Shown here one piece after another: positions 8,084-33,990 of a stretch of DNA of 33,990 bases (positions within the stretch are counted from its first letter, which is position 1; every line of letters starts with the position of its first letter). The position numbers and the translations under genes were made by a program. Under the pieces are notes generated by a model that worked only from the letters and a program-made list of their open reading frames with translations, did not search any database and had not been told where the DNA came from. The DNA comes from a virus. Lineage: Duplodnaviria > Heunggongvirae > Uroviricota > Caudoviricetes. The stretch is taken from IMG/VR virus record IMGVR_UViG_2737471857_000019. The stretch is one strand, 5' to 3'.

Positions 8084-8111
8084 GCAGACCAAAATATATG
8101 TTTTGGTCTGC
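8084..8111 (+). promoter_or_regulatory. perfect 11 bp-stem hairpin / inverted repeat GCAGACCAAAA..TTTTGGTCTGC
   Basis: Read directly; overlaps a direct repeat ATGTTTTGGTC (8098-8108 and 8120-8130) just upstream of the 8134 ORF. Confidence 0.5.
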
Positions 8112-8412: not shown

Positions 8413-8779
8413 AGCCGGTCAGGCGTATCTGGGGTGGGATGATGTCCTTTATCGCCAGACGCTGGCCCGCCTGACCGGTAAAACCAGCACCACACGCTGC
8501 AACCTCGATGAACTGCGCATCATCCGGGAATACATGCACGAACAGGGATTTCCGCGCAAGGCCCCCGCCGGTAAAGGTCGCCGCCCTCGTGTTGCAATGA
8601 GCAGAAAATCGGTATTATCCAAAATTGAAGCGTTGCTGGCTGATACCGGTCATTCCTGGGCGTATGCAGAAGGACTGGCATCTCACATGTATAAGCAACA
8701 TGTGATCGAATGGCTGACGGATGAACAGCTTTTTGGGGTGATGGTGGCGCTGGTTAAAGATTCAAGGAGACGTAAATGA
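8384..8779 (+). CDS. GemA-like protein (Mu gp16 / DUF1018 family)
   Basis: MIGAIKAGQAYLGWDDVLYRQTLARLTGKTS...LDELRIIREYMHEQGF matches the GemA/DUF1018 pattern as recalled; ATG 8384 behind GAGG. Confidence 0.55.
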   Translation: MLKKMIGAIKAGQAYLGWDDVLYRQTLARLTGKTSTTRCNLDELRIIREYMHEQGFPRKAPAGKGRRPRVAMSRKSVLSKIEALLADTGHSWAYAEGLASHMYKQHVIEWLTDEQLFGVMVALVKDSRRRK

Positions 8780-9114
8780 AAAAACTGTTATTACTTATTC
8801 TGGCTTTATGTTTTACAGGGATATCCCATGCTTCTGATTCAGAGGAAGATTTGATCAAAAAAACATTACAGGGCGATTATCAGGCACAACGTAATCTGGC
8901 TTATTCATACATGAATGGCTGGGATGATATTTCAAAGGATATCATCAGAGGATGCGCTCTCAGGAAGGTTATTCTCTTGACACAAGCCAAAGCTGACATT
9001 GGCGATTATGGAAATGAAGCCATAGATTGCCGAAAAGTTCATCCAACAGATAACAAGAAAGTATGGGAATATGTCAGAGGATACCTGATGTTGATAAACG
9101 AGAATAAAAAATAA
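8776..9114 (+). CDS. AT-rich secreted small protein with Sel1/TPR-like segment (112 aa); moron candidate
   Basis: Signal peptide MKKLLLLILALCFTGISHA; markedly AT-rich codons compared with flanking genes; last gene before the terminator. Confidence 0.6.
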   Translation: MKKLLLLILALCFTGISHASDSEEDLIKKTLQGDYQAQRNLAYSYMNGWDDISKDIIRGCALRKVILLTQAKADIGDYGNEAIDCRKVHPTDNKKVWEYVRGYLMLINENKK

Positions 9115-9213: not shown

Positions 9214-9681
9214 ATGCAGACCTTCAGTGAAACAGATCTTCGCGATGCGCAGTCACTACTGCCCGATTCCGTGCAGCAACTGATTAGCGTGATTGGCTTC
9301 CCCGCCCTGACCCGGTTAATTCGTTCTTTTGGTGGTGTGACGTTAAGTGGTAAAACCGGCGCACACGCCGAACGCACCGGCGGTGTCCATGCCCTGTTAC
9401 ATGACGTGCTGACCGAAGACGAAATCAACAGATTGATCCGCTTTCTTGGCGGTGCACCGTTTTACATTCCTCGTTGCGATCATGCGTTACGTGCCCTGCG
9501 TAACACCCGTTTTATGGCTGATTTACAGCAGCATGTAAAAGACGGATGCTCACACCGGCAGGCGCTGGCACTACTCTGTCCCCGTTACGGGATTTCAGAC
9601 CGGTACGCATGGCAACTGATACACCGACGACAAAAACAGACTTCGCTGAAAAGCCCCACCCAGGTGGGGCTTTTTGATTAA
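9214..9681 (+). CDS. Mor/C-family transcriptional activator (middle/late regulator)
   Basis: C-terminal HTH-like SHRQALALLCPRYGISDRYAWQLI and a FYIPR segment as in Mu Mor/C; in the middle position after the early terminator. Confidence 0.55.
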   Translation: MQTFSETDLRDAQSLLPDSVQQLISVIGFPALTRLIRSFGGVTLSGKTGAHAERTGGVHALLHDVLTEDEINRLIRFLGGAPFYIPRCDHALRALRNTRFMADLQQHVKDGCSHRQALALLCPRYGISDRYAWQLIHRRQKQTSLKSPTQVGLFD

Positions 9682-9988: not shown

Positions 9989-10032
9989 AGCACCCCGCCG
10001 CGGCGGGGTGCTGAACTCCCCCAGCAGTACCC
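9989..10032 (+). promoter_or_regulatory. 24 bp perfect palindrome overlapping copy A of the late-block dyad motif
   Basis: AGCACCCCGCCG|CGGCGGGGTGCT at 9989-10012; motif GTGCTGAAC..CAGTACCC at 10008-10032. Confidence 0.5.
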
Positions 10033-10168
10033 ACCACACCAGACCGTTTACCCTCTCCACTCAGACCACAAAGCACCTTAAGGGATAGCGCCCGGCAAAA
10101 GTCATTCTGTGCCTTTGACCGGGTGTTATTTACGGGCCGTCAGTGGCTCAGATTTACAGGAGAAACTC

Positions 10169-10561
10169 ATGTCTGAACCCTTATCAGGCGGCGGAGCTGT
10201 GGCAGTCACCATCGGTGGTGCCAGTGTGTTTGGTCTTCTCACCAATACCGATTTTGGCGTCGTGGTGGGCGCGTTTGCCGGGGCGCTTTTTGTTGTCACG
10301 CAACAGAAAGAAATCCCGGTGTGGCGAATGGCCATCCACCTGCTCGTCGCGTTTGTGGTTGGCGTTCTGGGGGCTGGCGTGGCTGCGTCACTGATGCAGT
10401 GGCTGACCCACTACAACGACAAGCCGCTCGATGCATTGTGTGCGGTCGGTGTCTCGGCGTTATCCATCAAGATACTGACCTTTCTTTATCAACAGGAAAT
10501 TTCATCGCTGTTCGGCCTGTTTTCCAGACTGCGCGGCGGAGGGGGTGGAAATGGAAAGTAG
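10169..10561 (+). CDS. putative holin-like membrane protein (130 aa)
   Basis: Three hydrophobic helices; ATG behind ACAGGAG; immediately upstream of the endolysin. Confidence 0.45.
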   Translation: MSEPLSGGGAVAVTIGGASVFGLLTNTDFGVVVGAFAGALFVVTQQKEIPVWRMAIHLLVAFVVGVLGAGVAASLMQWLTHYNDKPLDALCAVGVSALSIKILTFLYQQEISSLFGLFSRLRGGGGGNGK

Positions 10562-10829
10562 CCTTGCCGGTATCGTGAATGTCTGGCTGTGTCTCGCCAT
10601 TGTGCTGGGGTTGTTTGTGTATCGCCGTCACGGTGCGGCGCATAAACCGATGATTACCTGGCTGGCGTACTGGCTGATGCTCGGCTACATCATCATCCCG
10701 TTCCGCTGGCTGTCAGGTACATACACACACTCCAGCTGGCTGGTTGTGGCGCTGAATCTGGTGTTCTGTGCGCTTATCGTGTGGGCGCACGGGAATTTGT
10801 CAAAAATCCTTTCGTTACTGCGGAGGTGA
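10551..10829 (+). CDS. small membrane protein (holin/antiholin partner candidate)
   Basis: Hydrophobic segments; overlaps the stop of the previous ORF; within the lysis cassette. Confidence 0.4.
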   Translation: MESSLAGIVNVWLCLAIVLGLFVYRRHGAAHKPMITWLAYWLMLGYIIIPFRWLSGTYTHSSWLVVALNLVFCALIVWAHGNLSKILSLLRR

Positions 10830-10831
10830 AT

Positions 10832-11209
10832 ATGTCGGAAAAATTCCGTTTCAGTCAACGTAGCGAGAAAAATCTGGCTGGCGTAAAACCACAACTGGTG
10901 GCGGTTGTACGCCGTGCGCTGGCGTTGTCGGACGTCGATTTTGGTATTACCGAAGGTTTACGCACGAAAGAACGTCAGAAACAACTTGTCGCTGAAGGCA
11001 AGAGCCAGACCATGAACAGCCGTCACCTTACTGGCGATGCTGTTGATGTCGTGGCTTACGTTGGTGGCACCATTTCATGGGACTGGCCGTTATACGAAAA
11101 AATCGCCCGAGCCTTTAAACAGGCTGCCGCAGAGCTGGGTGTCGCCATCGAATGGGGCGGAGACTGGAAAACGCTGAAAGACGGGCCTCATTTCCAGTTA
11201 AAACGCTGA
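10832..11209 (+). CDS. endolysin, peptidase M15 (L-alanyl-D-glutamate peptidase / VanY-like)
   Basis: Zn-ligand motifs SRHLTGDAVDV and DGPHFQL typical of the M15 fold; ATG 10832 behind GGAGGTG. Confidence 0.7.
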   Translation: MSEKFRFSQRSEKNLAGVKPQLVAVVRRALALSDVDFGITEGLRTKERQKQLVAEGKSQTMNSRHLTGDAVDVVAYVGGTISWDWPLYEKIARAFKQAAAELGVAIEWGGDWKTLKDGPHFQLKR

Positions 11210-11222
11210 TGCGGGAGGGATT

Positions 11223-11405
11223 ATGAACAGAAGTCACTGGCCCCACAGAACGCCACGTAAAGCCGTGCGCTGTGTTCTGGCCCTGTTTCTGGTGATGTTG
11301 CTTCCGGTGGGATGCACTGACATTAACAGAGCGGGCCAGCTGTTTGACGCGGCGGCACAGGTCTGCCGGATTATCGACGGTATCCGGCAGTGTTCGCAGA
11401 ACTGA
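11223..11405 (+). CDS. small lipoprotein-like protein, possible o-spanin (60 aa)
   Basis: Hydrophobic leader ending LLPVGC, similar to lambda Rz1 as recalled; follows the endolysin; no i-spanin partner identified. Confidence 0.35.
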   Translation: MNRSHWPHRTPRKAVRCVLALFLVMLLPVGCTDINRAGQLFDAAAQVCRIIDGIRQCSQN

Positions 11406-11425
11406 TTTTTTGAAGGTCTGGCACA

Positions 11426-11632
11426 GTGAGCGTTATCAGATTTACAGAATACACAGGTTCAGGAGGTGCAGGCGCTGTCATGGTGCTCGCTGAACGCATC
11501 ACCCATTTTTACCGTCAGCACGGTACACATGATGGCACTGTCATTGAACTGGATACCGGGAAAAACGTGTTCGTTCTTGAAAATCCCGACGAAGTTCAGC
11601 GCAGGATTGAACAGGCTCAGAAGGACACTTAA
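11426..11632 (+). CDS. hypothetical protein (68 aa; start may be ATG 11480)
   Basis: ORF between the lysis genes and the gp27-like gene. Confidence 0.3.
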   Translation: MSVIRFTEYTGSGGAGAVMVLAERITHFYRQHGTHDGTVIELDTGKNVFVLENPDEVQRRIEQAQKDT

Positions 11633-12132
11633 TGGCGTGGTCACAGGATATCAGGGACAAAGTCCGTAACGGGTACATCTTTGACCAGCTTCCGCTGGAT
11701 ATCGTCGCCATGAAGTACGCCGTGCCGCACGATACCGCGCGGCGCTGGAAAACGCAGGCGATGAAGAACGGTGACGACTGGGACAAGCTGCGGGCCGCTC
11801 ACGCGCTCGCCGGTGACGGGCTGGAAAGTGTCGCCCGCACCGTGCTTATCAGTCTGGTGGTGAAGTGTCAGACGACGCTTGAACGGCTGAACCAGAACCC
11901 GGACATCCCGCCGCAGGAGTCCGTCGAACTGCTGGCGAGTCTGTCTGACAGTCTCAGTAAGGCGGTGGCCAGCAGTAAAAAAATCCTGCCGGAAACCGAC
12001 CGGCTCGCCACGGCACTGGAAGTGGTGCAGCGGCTCGGCGCGTTCATCAAGGAGCGTCACCCGGCACAGTATGCCGCGTTCCTTGAGGTGCTCGAAGGCT
12101 TCGCTAAAGAGCTTGAGGATAATTTCAGTTAA
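11632..12132 (+). CDS. Mu gp27-like protein (DUF1804), putative small terminase / DNA-binding subunit
   Basis: N-terminus MAWSQDIRDKVRNGYIFDQLPLDIVAMKYAVPHDTARRWK fits the DUF1804 pattern as recalled; upstream of the large terminase. Confidence 0.55.
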   Translation: MAWSQDIRDKVRNGYIFDQLPLDIVAMKYAVPHDTARRWKTQAMKNGDDWDKLRAAHALAGDGLESVARTVLISLVVKCQTTLERLNQNPDIPPQESVELLASLSDSLSKAVASSKKILPETDRLATALEVVQRLGAFIKERHPAQYAAFLEVLEGFAKELEDNFS

Positions 12133-12138
12133 CCACAG

Positions 12139-12158
12139 CGGCCCGGTTTTCCGGGCCG
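12139..12158 (+). promoter_or_regulatory. GC-rich hairpin CGGCCCGG-TTTT-CCGGGCCG
   Basis: Perfect 8 bp inverted repeat between the gp27-like gene and the methyltransferase; no downstream U-run. Confidence 0.4.
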
Positions 12159-12178
12159 TCTGATATTCGGGATTTGTA

Positions 12179-12919
12179 ATGCAAAAACAGATTATTGGTA
12201 ACGCAACGTTGTATTGCGGTGATGTTCTTGATGTGCTGCCAGCGTTATCCGAACGTTTTGATGCCGTCATTACCGACCCGCCTTACAGCAGTGGTGGCAC
12301 ACATAAATCAGACCGCAGCATAGCCCCTTCGGACAAGTATGTCGGTCACACCCGGTATGCCGAGTTCACCGGCGATAACCGCGACCAGCGCAGCTGGGCG
12401 TTCTGGTGTTCCATGTGGATTTCTCATGCATTGCACAGGCTGAATCCCGGCGGTTATTTCATGGTGTTCAGTGACTGGCGACAACTACCGGCGCTTACCG
12501 ATGCATTTCAGGCCGGTGGTGTGCTGTGGCGTGGTCTGGTTGTCTGGGATAAAACGCAGGCTTCCCGTGCGCCACACACCGGCTATTTCCGGCATCAGGC
12601 CGAGTATGTGGTCTGGGGCAGCAACGGAAAACTCGACAAATGCCCGCACGGTGGCCCGTTCCCTGGTGTGATTACGCAGCGTGTTGTCCCGTCTGAAAAA
12701 CTGCACATGACCGCAAAGCCAGTTCAGCTGATGGCCGAGCTGGTTAAACCGCTGGCACCGGATGCGCACGTCCTCGATCCGTTTATGGGAAGCGGCACCA
12801 CCGCCATCCCTGTACTTGCCCGTGGCGGACGGTTTACCGGCATTGAAATGACTAACCAGTATTTTGATATCGCCTGCGCACGTATCGAAAAAGCGCAGGC
12901 AGAAGCAGCGCAGGTGTGA
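12179..12919 (+). CDS. orphan DNA methyltransferase, beta-class (N6-adenine or N4-cytosine), 246 aa
   Basis: Motif IV DPPY near the N-terminus and motif I FMGSGTT near the C-terminus; no adjacent restriction endonuclease. Confidence 0.8.
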   Translation: MQKQIIGNATLYCGDVLDVLPALSERFDAVITDPPYSSGGTHKSDRSIAPSDKYVGHTRYAEFTGDNRDQRSWAFWCSMWISHALHRLNPGGYFMVFSDWRQLPALTDAFQAGGVLWRGLVVWDKTQASRAPHTGYFRHQAEYVVWGSNGKLDKCPHGGPFPGVITQRVVPSEKLHMTAKPVQLMAELVKPLAPDAHVLDPFMGSGTTAIPVLARGGRFTGIEMTNQYFDIACARIEKAQAEAAQV

Positions 12920-12920
12920 C

Positions 12921-14561
12921 GTGGCAAAACGTAAACTTTCCATTAAAGAGTTTCAGAGAAGCTTACAGGAGTACATCGCCAACCTCCGCCAGACCATTGA
13001 GGCTGAATGTCTGGGGTTTGATGTTAACCCGCAGGCCACACAGGCCCGCCGGGCGGCAGTCTGCGACCCGGTGACGGGCTACGATTATTTTGTCGAAAAC
13101 TATTTCCCGCACTACGTCCGCAACCCGGCAAAAAGTGAGCTGCATAAATACCTGTTCAGCCGTCTGCCACAGGTTGTGGCAAGCCCGGACCCGGAGAACG
13201 ACGCCATCGCCGCGCCCCGTGGTGAAGCAAAATCCACGCTGGTGACGCAGCTGTTTACCCTGTGGAACATTATCCGGGCCATTAAACATTACCCGGTCAT
13301 CATTATGGACAGTATCGACCAGGCTTATCCGATGCTGGAAGCCATCAAGGCTGAACTGGAATTTAACCCCCGTTTAAAAAACGATTTCCCGGAAGCGTGC
13401 GGACAGGGGCGCGTCTGGCGTATGGGGACTATTGTCACGGCCAACAATATCAAGGTGACCGTCGCCGGTAGTGGTAAAAAACTGCGCGGTCTGCGCCACG
13501 GTCCGTACCGTCCTGACCTGGTTATCCTCGACGACATCGAGAATGACGAGATGGTGCGTAACCCGGAGCAGCGCGACAAGCTGCACGACTGGCTCACTAA
13601 AACCGTGATGCCGCTGGGTGAGGCTGGCGGTAAAACCGATATTATTTATATCGGGACCATCCTGCATTACGACTCCGTGCTGTCGCGCACGCTGAATAAC
13701 CCGATGTGGAAAACAGCCCGCTTTAAGGCTGTTATTCAGTGGCCTGCCAACATGAAGCTGTGGGACGAGTGGGAAGAACTCATCCGCAACAAACAGCCGG
13801 AAGCGGCGGAGGCACTTTACCGGCAGAACGAAGCCGAGATGCTCGCCGGGTCGGTGGTGTCATGGGCGGCGCGTCCCCTGCTGGCACTGATGAAAATCCG
13901 TGTCCGTGACGGTCACGACACCTTTGATTCTGAATACCAGAACGACCCGGTCAGCGGTGAAGATGCGCTGTTTGCGGGCTGCATTAAGTTCTGGGTTAAC
14001 CGTCTTGATGAATGGGTGTTCTACGGCGCTGTTGACCCCAGTCTCGGGAAGAAAAACAAAAACCGCGACCCGTCGGCCATTCTCGTGGGGGGCTTTAACC
14101 GCTTTACCGGCATTCTGGATGTGGTTGAAGCCGATATCCGCCGACGTCTGCCAAATAAACTTATCGAAGACGTGATCAAGTATCAGCGGGAATACCACTG
14201 TCTGTGCTGGTCGTTTGAGTCCGTTCAGTTTCAGGAGTTTCTGCGTACCGTGCTGGTTGAGCGTTCGGCGGCGCTGGGCGTACCGGTTCCGGCGCTGCCG
14301 GTCATCCCTCTGGAGGATAAGGCGCTGCGTATTGAGTCCCTTCAGCCGCATATGGCCAACGGCCTGATTCGCATCAGTCCCGCACATCAGACGCTGATTG
14401 ACCAGCTGCGCCACTACCCCAAAGCCGACCATGATGACGGCCCGGACTGTCTGCACATGCTGTGGACGCTGGCAGTGTCGCGCAGCGCAAAATTTCAGAT
14501 ACACACCCCACGCAGCACCGGGCGTGACCGTGGCGGGCGTTTTGGTTCAGGAGGATGGTAA
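12921..14561 (+). CDS. terminase large subunit (Mu gp28-like)
   Basis: ATPase-like motifs (PRGEAKST, LVILDDIE), about 550 aa, upstream of the portal; track ORF starts at TTG 12864 inside the MTase, GTG 12921 follows the MTase stop. Confidence 0.75.
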   Translation: MAKRKLSIKEFQRSLQEYIANLRQTIEAECLGFDVNPQATQARRAAVCDPVTGYDYFVENYFPHYVRNPAKSELHKYLFSRLPQVVASPDPENDAIAAPRGEAKSTLVTQLFTLWNIIRAIKHYPVIIMDSIDQAYPMLEAIKAELEFNPRLKNDFPEACGQGRVWRMGTIVTANNIKVTVAGSGKKLRGLRHGPYRPDLVILDDIENDEMVRNPEQRDKLHDWLTKTVMPLGEAGGKTDIIYIGTILHYDSVLSRTLNNPMWKTARFKAVIQWPANMKLWDEWEELIRNKQPEAAEALYRQNEAEMLAGSVVSWAARPLLALMKIRVRDGHDTFDSEYQNDPVSGEDALFAGCIKFWVNRLDEWVFYGAVDPSLGKKNKNRDPSAILVGGFNRFTGILDVVEADIRRRLPNKLIEDVIKYQREYHCLCWSFESVQFQEFLRTVLVERSAALGVPVPALPVIPLEDKALRIESLQPHMANGLIRISPAHQTLIDQLRHYPKADHDDGPDCLHMLWTLAVSRSAKFQIHTPRSTGRDRGGRFGSGGW

Positions 14562-14564
14562 TTA

Positions 14565-16160
14565 ATGGCACAGCTTGTTGATATTTACGGACGCCCGCTG
14601 AAACGTGAGGCACTCAAAACCACGCAGTCGGTCAGAGTGGCAGAACGGCTGCGCATTTATCCCGACCACCCGTCCCGTGGTCTGAATATCAGAAAACTGC
14701 CGCGCATTCTGGAAGCTGCCGAACGCGGCTATCTTCCGGCGCAGGCGATGCTGTTTGCGGATATGGAAGAACGTGATGGCCATCTGTTCGCAGAGATGGA
14801 AAAGCGCAAAAAAGCCTTGCTGACGCTGGACTGGTCGGTGGAGCCGCCCCGCAATGCCTCGAAGGCAGAAAAGGAGCTGGCCGCCGCCGTGGATGACTGG
14901 CTGCACGGTATCCCGGACATGGAGGACATCATCCTCAACGGGATGAGTAGTGTCGGTTACGGCTTCAGCTGTCAGGAAATCAGCTGGGCGTTCGTGGATA
15001 AAACGTGGTTACCGGATGCGGTGACGCTGCGCCCGCATAACTGGTTCATTACCCTGCCGGAACACAATGACGAACTCCGCCTTGATGACGGCAACCGTGG
15101 GGAAGATGGTAAGGACGGCTCCGCACTGTGGCCGTTCGGCTGGCTGGTTCATCGTTACAACGCCCGGTCGGGGTTCCTGGGTTCATCCGGCCTGTTCCGC
15201 GTACTGGTCTGGCCGTATCTGTTTAAAAACTTTGCGTTGCGTGATATGGCGGAATTTCTGGAGATTTACGGCCTTCCGGCGCGCATTGCGTACTATGCAC
15301 AGGGCACCAGTGACGAAGACCGGGACAACATTCTCGAAGCCCTGGTTAATCTGGGCCATGAAGCGGTGGCAGCCCTGCCGCAGGGTAACGAAATCGAGTT
15401 CAAGGAAGCCGCGTCCGGTGGGCCGGAGGCGTTCATGTCGATGGTGGAATGGGCGGAGCGTACCACCTCAAAAGTGATTCTGGGCAGTACGCTGACCAGC
15501 CAGGCTGACGGTAAAACCTCCACCAACGCGCTGGGTAATGTGCATAACGAGGTCCGGCACGACATTCTGGCCGCCGATGCGCGCCAGCTGTCCGGCATGT
15601 TCAGCAGCCTGATACAGATGATGGCCAGCCTCAACGGCTGGCAGGATATCCCGCCACGCCGTCTGCCGCGTCTGGTGTTTGATGTGCAGCAGGAAGCCGA
15701 CATTAAGGGGGTGGCGGAAGCCGTCAGTGTGCTGGTCAACAATGTGGGAATGAAGGATATCCCGGTGTCGTGGGTGCGCAAAAAAACCGGTATCCCCACC
15801 CCGAAAGACGGCGAAGAGGTACTGGTTCCGGTGGCACAGCGTCTCCCTGTGCAGGCCGGTCTCAGCCAGCTGCGTGAGCGGATGAATGTTGCCGCACTCA
15901 GTCAGCAGGACAACGGGGAGGACGACCCGGCACAGCGCGCCATCGACCGGGCAGCACTTCCGGCAGAGGCCATCGCGCAGGGAATGAACGAACTGGTGGC
16001 CCCGCTGGTGCAGGCCATACAGGAAGGCCGGAATGCAGACGAGGTCATGAACGTACTGGCGGATGCATGGACGGAGCTGCCGGATGACACACTGCGGCAG
16101 TTGCTGGCGCAGGCATTCTTTGTGGCGGATATCTGGGGGCGACTGAATGCCGACAGCTGA
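14565..16160 (+). CDS. portal protein (Mu gp29 / DUF935-like)
   Basis: 531 aa ORF immediately after the terminase; Mu synteny. Confidence 0.75.
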   Translation: MAQLVDIYGRPLKREALKTTQSVRVAERLRIYPDHPSRGLNIRKLPRILEAAERGYLPAQAMLFADMEERDGHLFAEMEKRKKALLTLDWSVEPPRNASKAEKELAAAVDDWLHGIPDMEDIILNGMSSVGYGFSCQEISWAFVDKTWLPDAVTLRPHNWFITLPEHNDELRLDDGNRGEDGKDGSALWPFGWLVHRYNARSGFLGSSGLFRVLVWPYLFKNFALRDMAEFLEIYGLPARIAYYAQGTSDEDRDNILEALVNLGHEAVAALPQGNEIEFKEAASGGPEAFMSMVEWAERTTSKVILGSTLTSQADGKTSTNALGNVHNEVRHDILAADARQLSGMFSSLIQMMASLNGWQDIPPRRLPRLVFDVQQEADIKGVAEAVSVLVNNVGMKDIPVSWVRKKTGIPTPKDGEEVLVPVAQRLPVQAGLSQLRERMNVAALSQQDNGEDDPAQRAIDRAALPAEAIAQGMNELVAPLVQAIQEGRNADEVMNVLADAWTELPDDTLRQLLAQAFFVADIWGRLNADS

Positions 16161-17313
16161 CGATGTTGACCTGGGGTATGCGTACACACTGAAACCGGAA
16201 GAAGCGATTAAGTATTTCGAAAGTAAGGGATACGTTATCGGCTTCCGCTGGCACGATGTGAAGGATATCGCCAACGCCCGGGCGTTCACGGTGGCGGGCG
16301 TGCTGAAACTGGATGTGCTGAAGGATATCCGTGATGGCCTGACGGCCGCACTGGCTGACGGCGGGACGTTCCGGGAGTTTGCTGCACAACTGGAGCCACT
16401 GCTGGAGAAAAAAGGCTGGCTGGGTAAAAAACTGATTGTGGACGAGGACACCGGCGAACTGCACGGCAGACAGCTGACGCCGCGCCGGTTGCGCACGATA
16501 TTTGATACCAACATTCAGTCGTCCTACAACGCCGGACGTTATCAGCAACAGATGGCGAACGTGGCCGACCGGCCTTATTTTGAGCGCGTGGCGGTGATGG
16601 ACCTTCACACACGCCCGAAACACGCCGCCCTGAACGGCTTTACCGCCCGGGCGGATGACCCGGTCTGGGAGTATTTCTACGCCCCTGACGGGTACGGATG
16701 CCGCTGCCGTATCCGGGCGCGTTCGGCGTCTGATGTGGAGAAATATGGCCTGACGGTGCAGAGCAGCGAGGGGCGACTGGTTGAGGTTGAGCAGGAATAT
16801 GGCCAGCCGGGCCTGACCATCAGAACAATGGGACTGAAGATGCCGGACGGCTCCGTGTATACCGCCGACCCGGGCTTCGGATTTAATCCCGGTCGGGTGG
16901 CATGGCAGCCGGAACTGGAGAAATATGATTACCGCAGTGCCCGCCAGTATGTCACCGGCACTCTGACCGGGCCGGATTTTGCCCGGGGACTGGCGAACGT
17001 CAGCGAACTGGATGCGCGCCAGCGATATCCGCTGGCCATCCGTTCACCGGAACAGGTCGCCGCCACGGGCGCTGCACGGCAGACGGTAAACCTTACGGCT
17101 GACGTTATGAAGCGCCTCAGTGCAACAGACACGCCCCCGGCCGCCGCCGACTATGTGCTGATGCAGCAGACCATCGAACGGGCGGAGCATGTCACGCAGG
17201 ACGGCAACGCGTGGCGGTATGCGTTACAGTCGGGCGACCGCTGGTCAGTGGCGACGGTTGAGGATGACGTGCTGACAGACTGGGTTATGCAGGATACCCC
17301 GGAGGCATCATGA
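16147..17313 (+). CDS. head morphogenesis protein (Mu F / SPP1 gp7 family)
   Basis: 388 aa ORF overlapping the portal stop; Mu synteny. Confidence 0.7.
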   Translation: MPTADDVDLGYAYTLKPEEAIKYFESKGYVIGFRWHDVKDIANARAFTVAGVLKLDVLKDIRDGLTAALADGGTFREFAAQLEPLLEKKGWLGKKLIVDEDTGELHGRQLTPRRLRTIFDTNIQSSYNAGRYQQQMANVADRPYFERVAVMDLHTRPKHAALNGFTARADDPVWEYFYAPDGYGCRCRIRARSASDVEKYGLTVQSSEGRLVEVEQEYGQPGLTIRTMGLKMPDGSVYTADPGFGFNPGRVAWQPELEKYDYRSARQYVTGTLTGPDFARGLANVSELDARQRYPLAIRSPEQVAATGAARQTVNLTADVMKRLSATDTPPAAADYVLMQQTIERAEHVTQDGNAWRYALQSGDRWSVATVEDDVLTDWVMQDTPEAS

Positions 17314-17860
17314 GCAACGGTAAACTGGATATTAAGATTGATTTAAGCGCGTATAACACCACGCTGGGGAAACTGATTCGTTCCGTGAAGGACCGGCGCG
17401 ATCTGATGACGGCACTTGCGGGTTCCATGCTGGATGCGGTTGAGACTAACTTTGAACAACAGGGGCGCCCGAAATGGATGGGCTGGAGTCCGGCTTATGC
17501 GAAACGGCGCGGCCCCGGGCAAATCCTTCAGAAATCCGGGCGACTGGCTGCCAGTATCCGCTCTGCGGTTAACAATAACGAGGCCACGGTCGGGACAAAC
17601 GTCCGTTATGCCCGTATCCACAACGAAGGCGGCGAAATCCGCCATCAGGCACGGACGCAGAACCTGTATTTTAAACAGTACAAAAACGGCAGCGTCAGCA
17701 CCCGCTTTGTGAAAAGCGCAACAGTAATTTTGTGCAGAGCGCAACGGTCGGAGCGTATACGGTCAACATGCCCGCGCGCCCCTTCCTTCAGCTTGTACAG
17801 GACGACATCGACGAGCTGGAGAACACCGCAAACCGCTATTTTGCGCGTGTGATTGACTGA
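17310..17860 (+). CDS. virion morphogenesis protein (Mu G-like), apparently frameshifted by a 23 bp near-tandem duplication
   Basis: Frame of 17310 runs to 17852 with an aberrant tail; the frame shifted by -1/+2 encodes ...NMPARPFLQLVQDDIDELENTANRYFARVID and stops at 17860; duplicated segments 17706-17728 and 17729-17751. Confidence 0.6.
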
Positions 17861-18013
17861 ATGACCACAAACGCGCTGTAATCGTCTGTGGCAACATAAA
17901 CGCCTCACGGATGAGGCATTACAGCACCGCACCCCGTAAATGCTGTCAGAATCGTTTTTAAAAGGGTTTTAAAAACGGTTTTATTTCCCCTTTTATCCTT
18001 TCGCGTTATGGCT

Positions 18014-33213: not shown

Positions 33214-33990
33214 ATGTCTGTATTAATTTCAGGAGCGCTGATTAATGGCGCTGGCATTCCGATGGCGGAATGCAAAATTTATTTAGATGCACTGGTTAAT
33301 ACCAGTGAAGTGGTTATTGAATCATTTGCGGTTATTGAAACCGATGCGGCGGGACAGTATGCCTTTGAAGCACAAAAAGGCAAATACACCGTACACATCA
33401 AACAAAAGAACGGCCCTAAGTGCTGTGTGGGTGATATTTCGGTTTACGATGACTCAAAGCCCGGCACACTGAATGATTTTCTGACCGCGCTGGATGAAGG
33501 CGACCTCAAGCCCGACGTGGTGAAACGCTTTGAGGAAATGGTGGCGCAGGCGCAGCAGAGCGCGGAAGCAGCAGCGGAAAGCGAGCGACAGGCCGGGCAA
33601 CATGTCGCTGATGCGCAGAAGATAAAGGAAGACTGCGAGACGCTGGCGGATAACGTACAGCAGAATGCAGAAGCCGTTGCCGAAGACAAAAATCAGGTGG
33701 CGTTGCTGGCGTCATCTGCCACACAGGATGCGGCCCGCGCAGAGCAGGCTGTCAAGGATGCCGACACGATAGTCCGGAAAGCGGTCGATAAACTTGCTGA
33801 TGCCGCAACGCTGACCGGCGAGGCAAAGGCCAGTGCCGAAGCTGCCGCACAAAGCGAACAGAATGCGGAAAATCACGCTGATAATGCAGCACAAAGCGCA
33901 CAGCAGACCGCGCAGGATGTGGAGGCAACGGTCACCGCACGTGATGATGCGGAACGTTTTGCGGGTGAGGCAGAAAACAGCGCACAGACA
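33214..33990 (+). CDS. second tail fibre, lambda Stf-like N-terminal domain with Ala-rich coiled-coil shaft; 5' partial, runs off the window
   Basis: MSVLISGALINGAGIPMAECKIYLDALVNTSEVVI...GTLNDFLTALDEGDLKPDVVKRFEEMV resembles the lambda Stf N-terminus as recalled; no stop before 33990. Confidence 0.65.
   Translation, partial: MSVLISGALINGAGIPMAECKIYLDALVNTSEVVIESFAVIETDAAGQYAFEAQKGKYTVHIKQKNGPKCCVGDISVYDDSKPGTLNDFLTALDEGDLKPDVVKRFEEMVAQAQQSAEAAAESERQAGQHVADAQKIKEDCETLADNVQQNAEAVAEDKNQVALLASSATQDAARAEQAVKDADTIVRKAVDKLADAATLTGEAKASAEAAAQSEQNAENHADNAAQSAQQTAQDVEATVTARDDAERFAGEAENSAQT

What the first reader, a model, noticed from the sequence alone, without database searches (positions are those of the whole stretch)
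12139..12919. Orphan beta-class DNA methyltransferase between the two terminase subunits, preceded by a GC hairpin
In Mu the gp27 and gp28 genes are adjacent. Here a 246 aa methyltransferase (DPPY, then FMGSGTT) sits between them, with a perfect 8 bp GC hairpin (12139-12158) upstream and its stop immediately followed by the terminase GTG. No cognate nuclease is present. A packaging-linked orphan methylase is a plausible anti-restriction device expressed late so that packaged DNA is modified.
Basis: partly seen in the sequence, partly recalled or inferred. Interest (0 to 1): 0.5.

Follow-up and report, generated by a model that had tools for sequence, protein, structure and literature searches.

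The report
Optional methylase gene beside phage terminase
A Mu-like E. coli prophage carries an intact but optional DNA adenine methylase gene just upstream of its large terminase gene, most likely to protect packaged phage DNA from restriction; this is an ordinary, already annotated kind of phage gene, and the nearby GC hairpin belongs to the phage backbone, not to the methylase.

Summary
ORF 12179-12919 (+) encodes a 246-aa beta-class amino-methyltransferase with DPPY before FMGSGTT. A perfect 8-bp GC hairpin lies at 12139-12158. The TGA stop is one base before the terL GTG at 12921.

- **The hairpin is not part of the methylase unit.** Nineteen complete E. coli genomes carry the same prophage without the methylase and keep the hairpin. 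So does a more distant methylase-free relative.
- **The gene is an optional cassette.** It is a 743-nt insert, replacing 7 nt, with no promoter or terminator of its own. It reuses the backbone's terL ribosome site for its last two codons and stop.
- **The left neighbour is DUF1804**, the D3112 type, not a Mu gp27 homologue. TerL is not Mu gp28-like either.
- **The phage has no mom, com or nuclease gene.**

Homologous methylases sit directly before terL in other transposable phages, and behind Com or in other late slots in P2-like phages.

Most likely it is a late-expressed m6A anti-restriction methylase, silent in the lysogen. Its target sequence is unknown. I file it as a new member of a known kind, of low interest.

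The parts
11632..12132 (+). DUF1804 gene (D3112 orf24-type DNA-binding protein). It is the presumed small-terminase analogue by position and is not a Mu gp27 homologue.
   Evidence: PF08822 1-163/164, E 5.7e-53. phrog_756 'DNA binding protein'. BLASTP against Mu gp27 gives E 0.61. Mu gp27 is PF11985.
12136..12162 (+). Conserved backbone GC hairpin. The perfect 8-bp stem is at 12139-12158 with a TTTT loop, followed by a moderately T-rich tail, TCTGATATT.
   Evidence: Present in methylase-plus and methylase-minus prophages. Variant stems and loops occur in L010, L011, L095 and L240.
12168..12910 (+). Cassette-specific DNA: 743 nt found only in methylase-plus prophages. Methylase-minus prophages have TGTATAC (7 nt) here.
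   Evidence: Alignments A1 and A2 against L003, L004 and L005. The 736-nt length difference appears.
12169..12172 (+). Weak Shine-Dalgarno (GGGA), 6 nt before the methylase ATG. Relatives have GGGGGA here.
   Evidence: Sequence. Relatives.
12179..12919 (+). Beta-class DNA amino-methyltransferase, probably N6-adenine, 246 aa. Its last two codons (CAG GTG) and its TGA stop lie in sequence shared with methylase-free prophages.
   Evidence: PF01555 at 87.3 bits. phrog_67 E 1.2e-54. PADLOC MTase_II PDLC03321 E 1.9e-64. AF2 model pLDDT 84.5 with best folds M1.HpyAVI, CcrM and M.BceJIV. Catalytic motifs invariant in 27 and 33 homologues.
12275..12286 (+). Motif IV, DPPY (catalytic).
12782..12802 (+). 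Motif I, FMGSGTT (AdoMet binding).
12912..12916 (+). terL Shine-Dalgarno (AGGTG), inside the last methylase codons. The same sequence precedes terL in methylase-free prophages.
12921..14561 (+). Large terminase gene, GTG start.
   Evidence: phrog_38 E 7e-142 and TIGR01630. RefSeq terL.

Best explanation
The ORF is an intact, solitary beta-class DNA methyltransferase, most likely making N6-methyladenine. It is carried as an optional, promoterless cassette in the one real intergenic gap of the late lysis/head operon of a transposable prophage (D3112/B3-type packaging genes, myovirus tail).

**Proposed mechanism**
- It is transcribed only after induction, on the late operon transcript that also encodes the lysis proteins, DUF1804, TerL, portal and head proteins.
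- It is translated from its own weak ribosome site. Terminating ribosomes can hand over to the terL GTG one base further on.
- The enzyme methylates replicating phage DNA shortly before headful packaging, so that virion DNA resists adenine-methylation-sensitive restriction in the next host.
- It would stand in for the Mom function that this phage lacks.
- The GC hairpin upstream is an older backbone element, probably a leaky terminator or RNA-stability stem-loop. It precedes whichever gene comes next and is not a methylase-specific control.

**Shown:** gene integrity, family, fold, solitary status, cassette boundaries, operon position, hairpin independence.

**Inferred:** adenine target, late-only expression, translational coupling, anti-restriction role, hairpin function.

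**Unknown:** the recognition sequence.
For: **Identity and integrity**
- Family and motifs.
- TDPPYSSGG and DPFMGS are invariant across 27 and 33 homologues of 53-93% identity.
- The fold matches solved beta-class methylases: M1.HpyAVI 2e-15, CcrM, M.BceJIV.

**Optional cassette**
- Of the 55 complete E. coli genomes that carry this region, 36 have the methylase and 19 do not, with flanks 96-99% identical.
- The junctions are exact.

**Late operon context**
- Genes from 10109 to 17852 lie head to tail, with gaps of -17 to +20 nt. The only exception is the 46-nt gap that holds the hairpin.
- No promoter-like site is found on the + strand between 9184 and 15000.

**Tight junction with terL recurs in relatives**
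- L010, L011, L094 and L095 have stop, 1-2 nt, then GTG.
- L020 and L121 overlap a TerL that is only 34-36% identical to the window's.

**No other modification or nuclease gene**
- No Mom, Com or Gin homologue is present.
- The complete right end of the prophage runs from tail-fibre genes straight into host fliH.
- No nuclease family hits.

**Precedents**
- Mu-like prophages FluMu and Pnme1 carry m6A methylases in place of mom, and these protect DNA from many restriction enzymes (PMC3299994).
- Prophage methylases can be silent in lysogens (PMC5778455, PMC4659465).
- Methylase genes cluster upstream of the large terminase gene (the 'ParB-Tls locus', PMC6536676 citing Iyer et al. 2013).
Against: - No experimental datum exists for this protein or any close homologue. 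The target base, the recognition sequence and activity on double-stranded DNA are all unverified.
- The closest curated subfamily, NF010253 (the M.EcoGIX-like plasmid methylases, reported to act on single strands, PMC7736820), matches full length but far below its cutoff (76.6 against 244 bits). An unusual substrate preference therefore cannot be excluded.
- About one third of otherwise near-identical prophages do without the gene, so any benefit is conditional.
- The ribosome site is weak, and a strong hairpin sits upstream. Expression could be low.
Confidence: 0.7

Rival explanations
1. Packaging-coupled or regulatory methylase. The enzyme marks phage DNA for recognition by the DUF1804/TerL packaging machinery, or times late functions, as Dam methylation does for the P1 pac site. 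Its place between DUF1804 and terL would then reflect a functional complex.
For: - A tight stop/start junction with terL occurs in several divergent transposable phages, including ones whose TerL is only 34-36% identical to the window's.
- The literature has suggested that DNA-binding partners next to terL direct modification during packaging (PMC6536676 citing Iyer et al. 2013).
Against: - Nineteen of 55 E. coli copies and 7 IMG/VR copies with 99% identical DUF1804 and TerL lack the gene.
- About 50 relatives with TerL of 54-81% identity lack it.
- The same methylase clade sits in unrelated late slots of P2-like phages.
- The gene is therefore dispensable for packaging.
Confidence: 0.1
2. Lysogenic-conversion gene (moron). 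It is expressed in the lysogen and changes host gene expression, or protects the host chromosome as a 'molecular vaccine'.
For: - The gene has a presence/absence polymorphism typical of morons.
- Orphan methylases have been proposed to have such roles (PMC4659465, introduction).
Against: - There is no promoter-like site upstream.
- The cassette brings only 11 nt of 5' leader and no terminator.
- It is embedded in a late operon.
Confidence: 0.07
3. The hairpin is a methylase-specific control element, for example a Com-like target or a moron boundary that arrived with the gene. This is implied by the first reader.
For: - A similar hairpin lies 18-20 nt before the methylase ATG in L010, L011 and L095.
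- Homologous methylases in P2-like phages are preceded by a Com zinc-finger gene.
Against: - The hairpin is present unchanged in all methylase-free E. coli variants. A variant of it lies before terL in methylase-free L240.
- There is no Com homologue in the window.
- The stem ends about 10 nt upstream of the ribosome site, so it cannot mask it.
Confidence: 0.03
4. Decaying, non-functional remnant of a former restriction-modification system.
For: - No partner nuclease is present.
- The gene is lost in a third of copies.
Against: - The reading frame is full length with all catalytic residues.
- The exact protein is found on 213 contigs, in a 90%-identity cluster of 440 members.
- Homologues at 53-80% identity keep the same length and motifs, which indicates purifying selection.
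Confidence: 0.03

Closest known systems
Solitary phage/prophage beta-class DNA methyltransferases (PF01555; PHROG 67; PADLOC MTase_II PDLC03321). Examples are Bordetella phage BPP-1 Bpm (53% identity) and the methylase of P2-like Escherichia phage Chuche (54%).
   Same: Same family, length and motif order. The putative DNA-contact stretch SRAPHTGYFRHQxEY is the same. All are solitary and lie in temperate phage genomes.
   Different: The genomic slot differs. Here the gene is directly upstream of terL in a transposable phage. In Chuche and many Salmonella/E. coli P2-like phages it follows a Com zinc-finger gene. In other P2-like contigs it lies in the tail or head-completion region. No member has a published recognition sequence that I could find.
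Hin1523 / Hia5 / Nma1821: non-specific m6A methyltransferases of the Mu-like prophages FluMu and Pnme1 (Drozdz et al. 2012, PMC3299994).
   Same: A Mu-like prophage without mom carries a solitary adenine methylase presumed to protect phage DNA from restriction.
   Different: Those enzymes are alpha-class (FxGxG before DPPY, as stated in PMC5778455) and sit at the mom position at the right end. This one is beta-class and sits before terL. Relaxed specificity is unknown here.
'ParB-Tls locus': DNA-modification genes sandwiched between a ParB-like gene and the large terminase gene (Iyer et al. 2013, as described in PMC6536676).
   Same: The methylase lies immediately upstream of the large terminase gene, with a DNA-binding protein gene on its other side.
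   Different: The upstream gene is DUF1804, not ParB, and no ParB domain is fused. The methylase is optional within one phage lineage.
M.EcoGII / M.EcoGI (349-aa beta-class non-specific adenine methylases of lambdoid prophages; PMC5778455).
   Same: Beta-class, prophage-borne and solitary. Silent in the lysogen (reported for M.EcoGI/II, expected here).
   Different: This protein is about 100 residues shorter, and both the prophage type and the slot differ. A 352-aa gene annotated DNA-methyltransferase, possibly of that kind by length, lies in the neighbouring lambdoid prophage of strain 08-00022; I did not compare its sequence. No direct sequence comparison with M.EcoGII was possible.
Mu Com/Mom modification module.
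   Same: Presumed purpose: late modification of adenines in phage DNA against restriction.
   Different: There is no sequence relationship. The chemistry differs (methylation against acetamido modification), as do the position and the control.

Membership tests
Beta-class DNA amino-methyltransferase (PF01555 N6_N4_Mtase) | Profile match above the curated threshold | tested here: met
   87.3 bits against a cutoff of 26.7
Beta-class DNA amino-methyltransferase (PF01555 N6_N4_Mtase) | Motif order: catalytic (D/S)PP(Y/F) N-terminal to AdoMet-binding FxGxG | tested here: met
   DPPY at residues 33-36 and FMGSG at 202-206. Both are invariant in homologues.
Beta-class DNA amino-methyltransferase (PF01555 N6_N4_Mtase) | Rossmann-like methyltransferase fold matching solved beta-class enzymes | tested here: met
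   AF2 model with pLDDT 84.5. Foldseek: M1.HpyAVI 2e-15, CcrM 1e-14, M.BceJIV 9e-14.
Beta-class DNA amino-methyltransferase (PF01555 N6_N4_Mtase) | AdoMet-dependent methylation of adenine N6 (or cytosine N4) in DNA | not testable with these tools
   DPPY rather than SPPY/F favours adenine, by established motif knowledge only.
Solitary (orphan) phage methyltransferase | No cognate restriction endonuclease in the element | tested here: met
   RefSeq annotation of the 99.8% identical prophage. Pfam and PADLOC give no nuclease hit on the unassigned ORFs.
Solitary (orphan) phage methyltransferase | Encoded inside a phage genome and co-oriented with the late genes | tested here: met
M.EcoGIX-like plasmid methylases (NCBIfam NF010253 / PRK13699) | Score at or above the curated subfamily cutoff | tested here: not met
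   76.6 bits against 244. A distant relative only.
CcrM (NF050803) and YhdJ (NF008572) equivalogs | Score at or above the equivalog cutoff | tested here: not met
   51.6 against 830, and 40.7 against 292. Only the C-terminal AdoMet region matches.
Mu-like prophage methylases replacing mom (Hin1523/Hia5 type) | Alpha-class motif order and location at the mom position at the right end | tested here: not met
   The order here is beta. The gene lies before terL. The right end of the prophage holds only tail-fibre genes.
Com-controlled modification module (Mu com-mom; Com plus methylase in P2-like phages) | Com zinc-ribbon gene (PF10122) immediately upstream | tested here: not met
   No Com homologue in the window at E<1. 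Com is present upstream of homologues in 37 of 159 related loci.
ParB-Tls modification locus | Modification gene directly upstream of the large terminase gene | tested here: met
   1-nt spacer. The same holds in relatives.
ParB-Tls modification locus | ParB-like gene or domain on the other side | tested here: not met
   The upstream gene is DUF1804 only.
Intrinsic (Rho-independent) terminator, for the hairpin | GC-rich stem-loop followed by a U-tract | tested here: inconclusive
   The stem is strong (region fold -22.6 kcal/mol). The tail TCTGATAT has 4 T in 8 and fails the scan's criterion of 5 in 8. The tails in L010 and L240 would pass.

The most novel reading that the evidence does not exclude
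DUF1804-methylase-TerL could be the transposable-phage version of a packaging-coupled modification module. The methylase would be made in fixed ratio with TerL through translational coupling and would act on DNA as it is recognised or threaded for headful packaging, perhaps on transiently single-stranded or nicked DNA, given its distant kinship with the single-strand-specific M.EcoGIX family. The conserved hairpin would act as an attenuator that sets the dose of both. This would explain why the same slot is used in lineages with very different TerL proteins.
Probability: 0.08. Interest if true: 0.55.

Novelty: new member of a known kind. Interest (0 to 1): 0.2.

Why it matters
The significance is modest. 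The gene is a typical phage counter-restriction device, already annotated generically in hundreds of E. coli assemblies.

Two things are useful.

- **Natural controls.** Methylase-plus and methylase-minus versions of one prophage exist with exact, known junctions. They allow the cost and benefit of a phage methylase to be measured without engineering.
- **One specificity for a large clade.** The putative DNA-contact segment is invariant across a clade spread over Mu-like, P2-like and BPP-1-like phages. Determining one specificity would therefore probably annotate thousands of genes.

The work also corrects two easy misreadings: the hairpin is not tied to the methylase, and the flanking genes are not Mu gp27/gp28 homologues.

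Tried and rejected
- **Nucleotide search of the phage collection.** No match. The element is known only as a prophage.
- **Looking for the recognition sequence.** PDB sequence and fold hits are all at 23% identity or less. NCBIfam equivalogs are far below their cutoffs. Source names are generic. Literature searches for BPP-1 Bpm and phiE125 found nothing usable. The papers on M.EcoGII, M.EcoGIX and the ST131 methylome concern other families. The specificity stays unknown.
- **Rfam at E<=1 on 11000-13500.** No hit.
- **Hairpin as a Com target or methylase-borne element.** Rejected, as set out under the rival explanations.
- **Formal covariation count on the MAFFT alignment A5.** Not run, because MAFFT mis-registers the 3' arm of L095 and L240. 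The variants are listed by eye instead.
- **Iyer et al. 2013.** Could not be read. It is cited through PMC6536676.
- **Mechanism of insertion or deletion.** Only ambiguous micro-homology (ATTTGTA) lies at the left junction. No direct repeats or recombinase sites were recognised.
- **E2348/69 as evidence that mom is absent.** Rejected, because that copy is truncated within gin. OkiPb01701 was used instead.

Full report
**What is there**

The window is almost a whole transposable (Mu-like) prophage of E. coli. It encodes a Mu-type transposase and MuB-like ATPase, DUF3164, GemA and Mor. These are followed by holins, an M15 endolysin and DUF1804. Next come the methyltransferase, TerL, a Mu-type portal, MuF and a myovirus tail. 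The region 11400-13300 is 99.8% identical to strain 08-00022 and occurs in 55 of 5426 complete E. coli genomes. The phage collection has no nucleotide match.

ORF 12179-12919 (+) encodes 246 aa, with DPPY at residues 33-36 and FMGSGTT at 202-208.

- **Families.** It matches PF01555 (87.3 bits, cutoff 26.7), phrog_67 (1e-54) and PADLOC MTase_II PDLC03321 (2e-64, full length).
- **Motifs.** In alignments of 27 and 33 homologues at 53-93% identity, TDPPYSSGG and DPFMGS are invariant. So is a central stretch, R130-P-H-x-G-Y-F-R-H-Q-x-E-Y143.
- **Fold.** An AlphaFold model (pLDDT 84.5) superposes on solved beta-class methylases M1.HpyAVI, CcrM, M.BceJIV and M.MboIIA. The only low-confidence loops are residues 38-42 and 130-135. 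The second lies in the invariant stretch and is a plausible DNA-contact loop (inference).
- **Integrity.** I found no lesion in the catalytic motifs.
- **Public record.** The exact protein is already public on 213 contigs under generic names.

**The hairpin is real but is not the methylase's**

The stem CGGCCCGG/CCGGGCCG with a TTTT loop is at 12139-12158, six bases after the DUF1804 stop. Three more pairs extend it. The 61-nt region around it folds at -22.6 kcal/mol (z = -3.05). It is the only GC-only perfect stem of 8 bp or more in the window, against 0.075 expected per shuffle. The window as a whole is rich in intergenic hairpins (20 counts against 3.4 in shuffles).

The decisive result came from the E. 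coli genomes. Thirty-five genomes contain the full query. One more has the methylase but is cut upstream by an IS66 element. Nineteen match at 96-99% identity but are 736 nt shorter. Alignment of three of these (L003, L004, L005) shows the following:

- DUF1804, the hairpin and TCTGATATT are unchanged.
- Then comes TGTATAC, where the window has 743 nt (12168-12910).
- Then comes the shared CAGGTGTGAC-GTG of terL.

So the hairpin belongs to the backbone. The cassette brings only 11 nt of leader plus the coding sequence. The last two methylase codons (CAG GTG), its TGA stop and the terL ribosome site (AGGTG) are sequence that the methylase-free phages also have.

Seven IMG/VR contigs show the same methylase-free form.

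Relatives carry variants of the hairpin:

| Locus | Hairpin | Context |
|---|---|---|
| L240 (DUF1804 77%, TerL 81%) | GGCCCGGG-TTCT-CCCGGGCC | methylase-free; followed by a T-rich tail, a GGGG ribosome site and the terL GTG |
| L010 | GGCCCGG-ACTC-CCGGGCC | 18-20 nt before the methylase ATG |
| L011 | AAGGCCCGGA-ACG-TCCGGGCCTT | 18-20 nt before the methylase ATG |
| L095 | GCCCGGA-ACAA-TCCGGGC | 18-20 nt before the methylase ATG |

In L095 a 99-aa lipoprotein-like ORF has been inserted between DUF1804 and the hairpin.

The GCCCGG core never varies. The loops differ, and peripheral pairs are exchanged: C-G becomes A-T, and extra inner A-T or G-C pairs appear. One E. coli variant (L092) has a C-to-T change that keeps a G.U pair only in the + strand RNA. 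This is modest evidence for a selected RNA stem-loop.

It fails the terminator scan's U-tract rule in the window, though it would pass in L010 and L240. It ends about 10 nt before the ribosome site, so it cannot mask it. A leaky terminator or an RNA-stability element is my best guess, and it is only an inference. Rfam has nothing here.

**Context and expression**

From 10109 to 17852 all genes are co-oriented, with gaps of -17 to +20 nt. The single exception is the 46-nt hairpin gap. No sigma-70-like site is predicted on the + strand between 9184 and 15000. The gene is therefore most simply read as part of the Mor-dependent late transcript. It would be silent in the lysogen, as was reported for other prophage methylases (PMC5778455, PMC4659465).

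The neighbours are not Mu gp27 and gp28.

- The left gene is DUF1804, the family of D3112 orf24.
- Mu gp27 is PF11985.
- BLASTP of either neighbour against its Mu counterpart is not significant.
- Mu gp27 and gp28 are indeed adjacent.

In DUF1804-type phages this junction is a variable slot:

- It is overlapping or adjacent in RcapMu and many IMG/VR contigs.
- Klebsiella phage ST405-OXA48phi1.1 has three small ORFs there.
- D3112 has an antisense ORF there.
- Mannheimia phage 3927AP2 has a 48-aa ORF there.

**Solitary status**

The near-identical RefSeq prophage has no nuclease annotated. Pfam and PADLOC find none among the unassigned ORFs. There is no Mom, Com or Gin homologue. In strain OkiPb01701 the prophage's right end runs from tail-fibre genes straight into host fliH. 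The methylase is thus the only DNA-modification gene, and it is optional.

**Relatives**

I fetched 159 loci that encode homologues of the methylase.

- Sixteen have the DUF1804 ... methylase-terL arrangement. They include Intestinirhabdus and Buttiauxella. They also include Serratia-type phages whose TerL is only 34-36% identical to the window's and whose methylase overlaps terL.
- Thirty-seven have a Com zinc-ribbon gene directly upstream. These are P2-like phages of Salmonella and E. coli such as phage Chuche, and betaproteobacterial prophages.
- Others lie after a Mu-type portal gene, or in P2-like late slots.

Among TerL relatives of the window, only those at 88% identity or more ever carry the methylase. 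About 50 relatives at 54-81% identity do not. Gain and loss are evidently frequent.

Within E. coli there are two alleles. They differ by a mosaic patch at about 12379-12578, while the flanks stay 99% identical.

**Comparison with what is known**

- Solitary phage methylases as counter-restriction devices are textbook.
- Mu-like prophages that replace mom with an adenine methylase are documented (PMC3299994). Those are alpha-class enzymes at the right end.
- Clustering of modification genes just upstream of the large terminase gene has been described as the ParB-Tls locus (PMC6536676 citing Iyer et al. 2013). Here the partner is DUF1804, not ParB.
- The nearest curated subfamily, the M.EcoGIX-like plasmid methylases, matches full length but far below its cutoff.
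- CcrM and YhdJ match only in the AdoMet region.

No source gave a recognition sequence.

**Verdict**

The methylase is an intact, optional, promoterless late-operon cassette. It most likely makes m6A to protect packaged DNA (confidence about 0.7). The hairpin is an independent, conserved backbone element. I file it as a new member of a known kind, with low interest (0.2). The main practical value is the set of natural methylase-plus and methylase-minus prophage pairs, together with the likely single specificity shared by a very large phage methylase clade.

Noticed in passing
window 8084-8111, 9649-9674, 9989-10012, 17953-17977: Four further perfect hairpins with 10-11-bp stems lie at gene-block boundaries. 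9649-9674 has A-run and T-run flanks and overlaps the 3' end of the Mor gene. 9989-10012 lies before the holins. 17953-17977 lies between the G-like gene and the protease. Perfect stems of 8 bp or more are about six times more frequent than in shuffles (20 counts against 3.4).
   Followed up: partly
window 12379-12578: E. coli prophages carry two methylase alleles. The 93%-identical one, represented here by locus L093, differs from the window's mainly by a mosaic patch over residues ~68-133, while DUF1804 and TerL stay 99% identical. This suggests recombination inside the gene.
   Followed up: partly
window 33214-33990 and beyond (L253 5115-7987): The prophage has no gin, com or mom. Its right end carries a second long tail-fibre gene plus a DUF4376 gene and then host DNA (fliH in OkiPb01701). 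The E2348/69 copy sits in the eut operon, has a different tail-fibre end and keeps a 31-aa Gin remnant.
   Followed up: partly
window 8776-9114: A 112-aa ORF with a clear signal peptide (MKKLLLLILALCFTGISHA) and no family hit lies between the GemA-like gene and Mor. Strain 08-00022 has a different 159-aa gene at this place. It is a candidate moron.
   Followed up: no
L095 1914-2213: In a related IMG/VR prophage, a 99-aa lipoprotein-like ORF (lipobox LSAC) is inserted between DUF1804 and the conserved hairpin. Both sides of the hairpin therefore act as insertion slots.
   Followed up: partly
L002 5778-5984 and 37 further loci (e.g. L026, L131-L159): Homologues of this methylase in P2-like phages are preceded by a Com zinc-ribbon gene (PF10122). 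This implies Com-type translational control of an ordinary methyltransferase rather than of Mom.
   Followed up: partly
L020 4001-4753, L121 4001-4774: In Serratia-type transposable prophages, the homologous methylase overlaps the start of a TerL that is only 34-36% identical to the window's. The methylase-terL junction is thus kept across very divergent packaging enzymes.
   Followed up: partly
window ~11344-11493 (L001 19945-20094): RefSeq annotates a 49-aa 'SPASM domain-containing protein' overlapping two small ORFs upstream of DUF1804. It looks like an over-annotation.
   Followed up: no
L001 602-1660: In strain 08-00022, the lambdoid prophage next to the Mu-like one carries a separate 352-aa gene annotated DNA-methyltransferase. 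By length it may be of the M.EcoGII/M.EcoGI kind. Its sequence was not compared.
   Followed up: no
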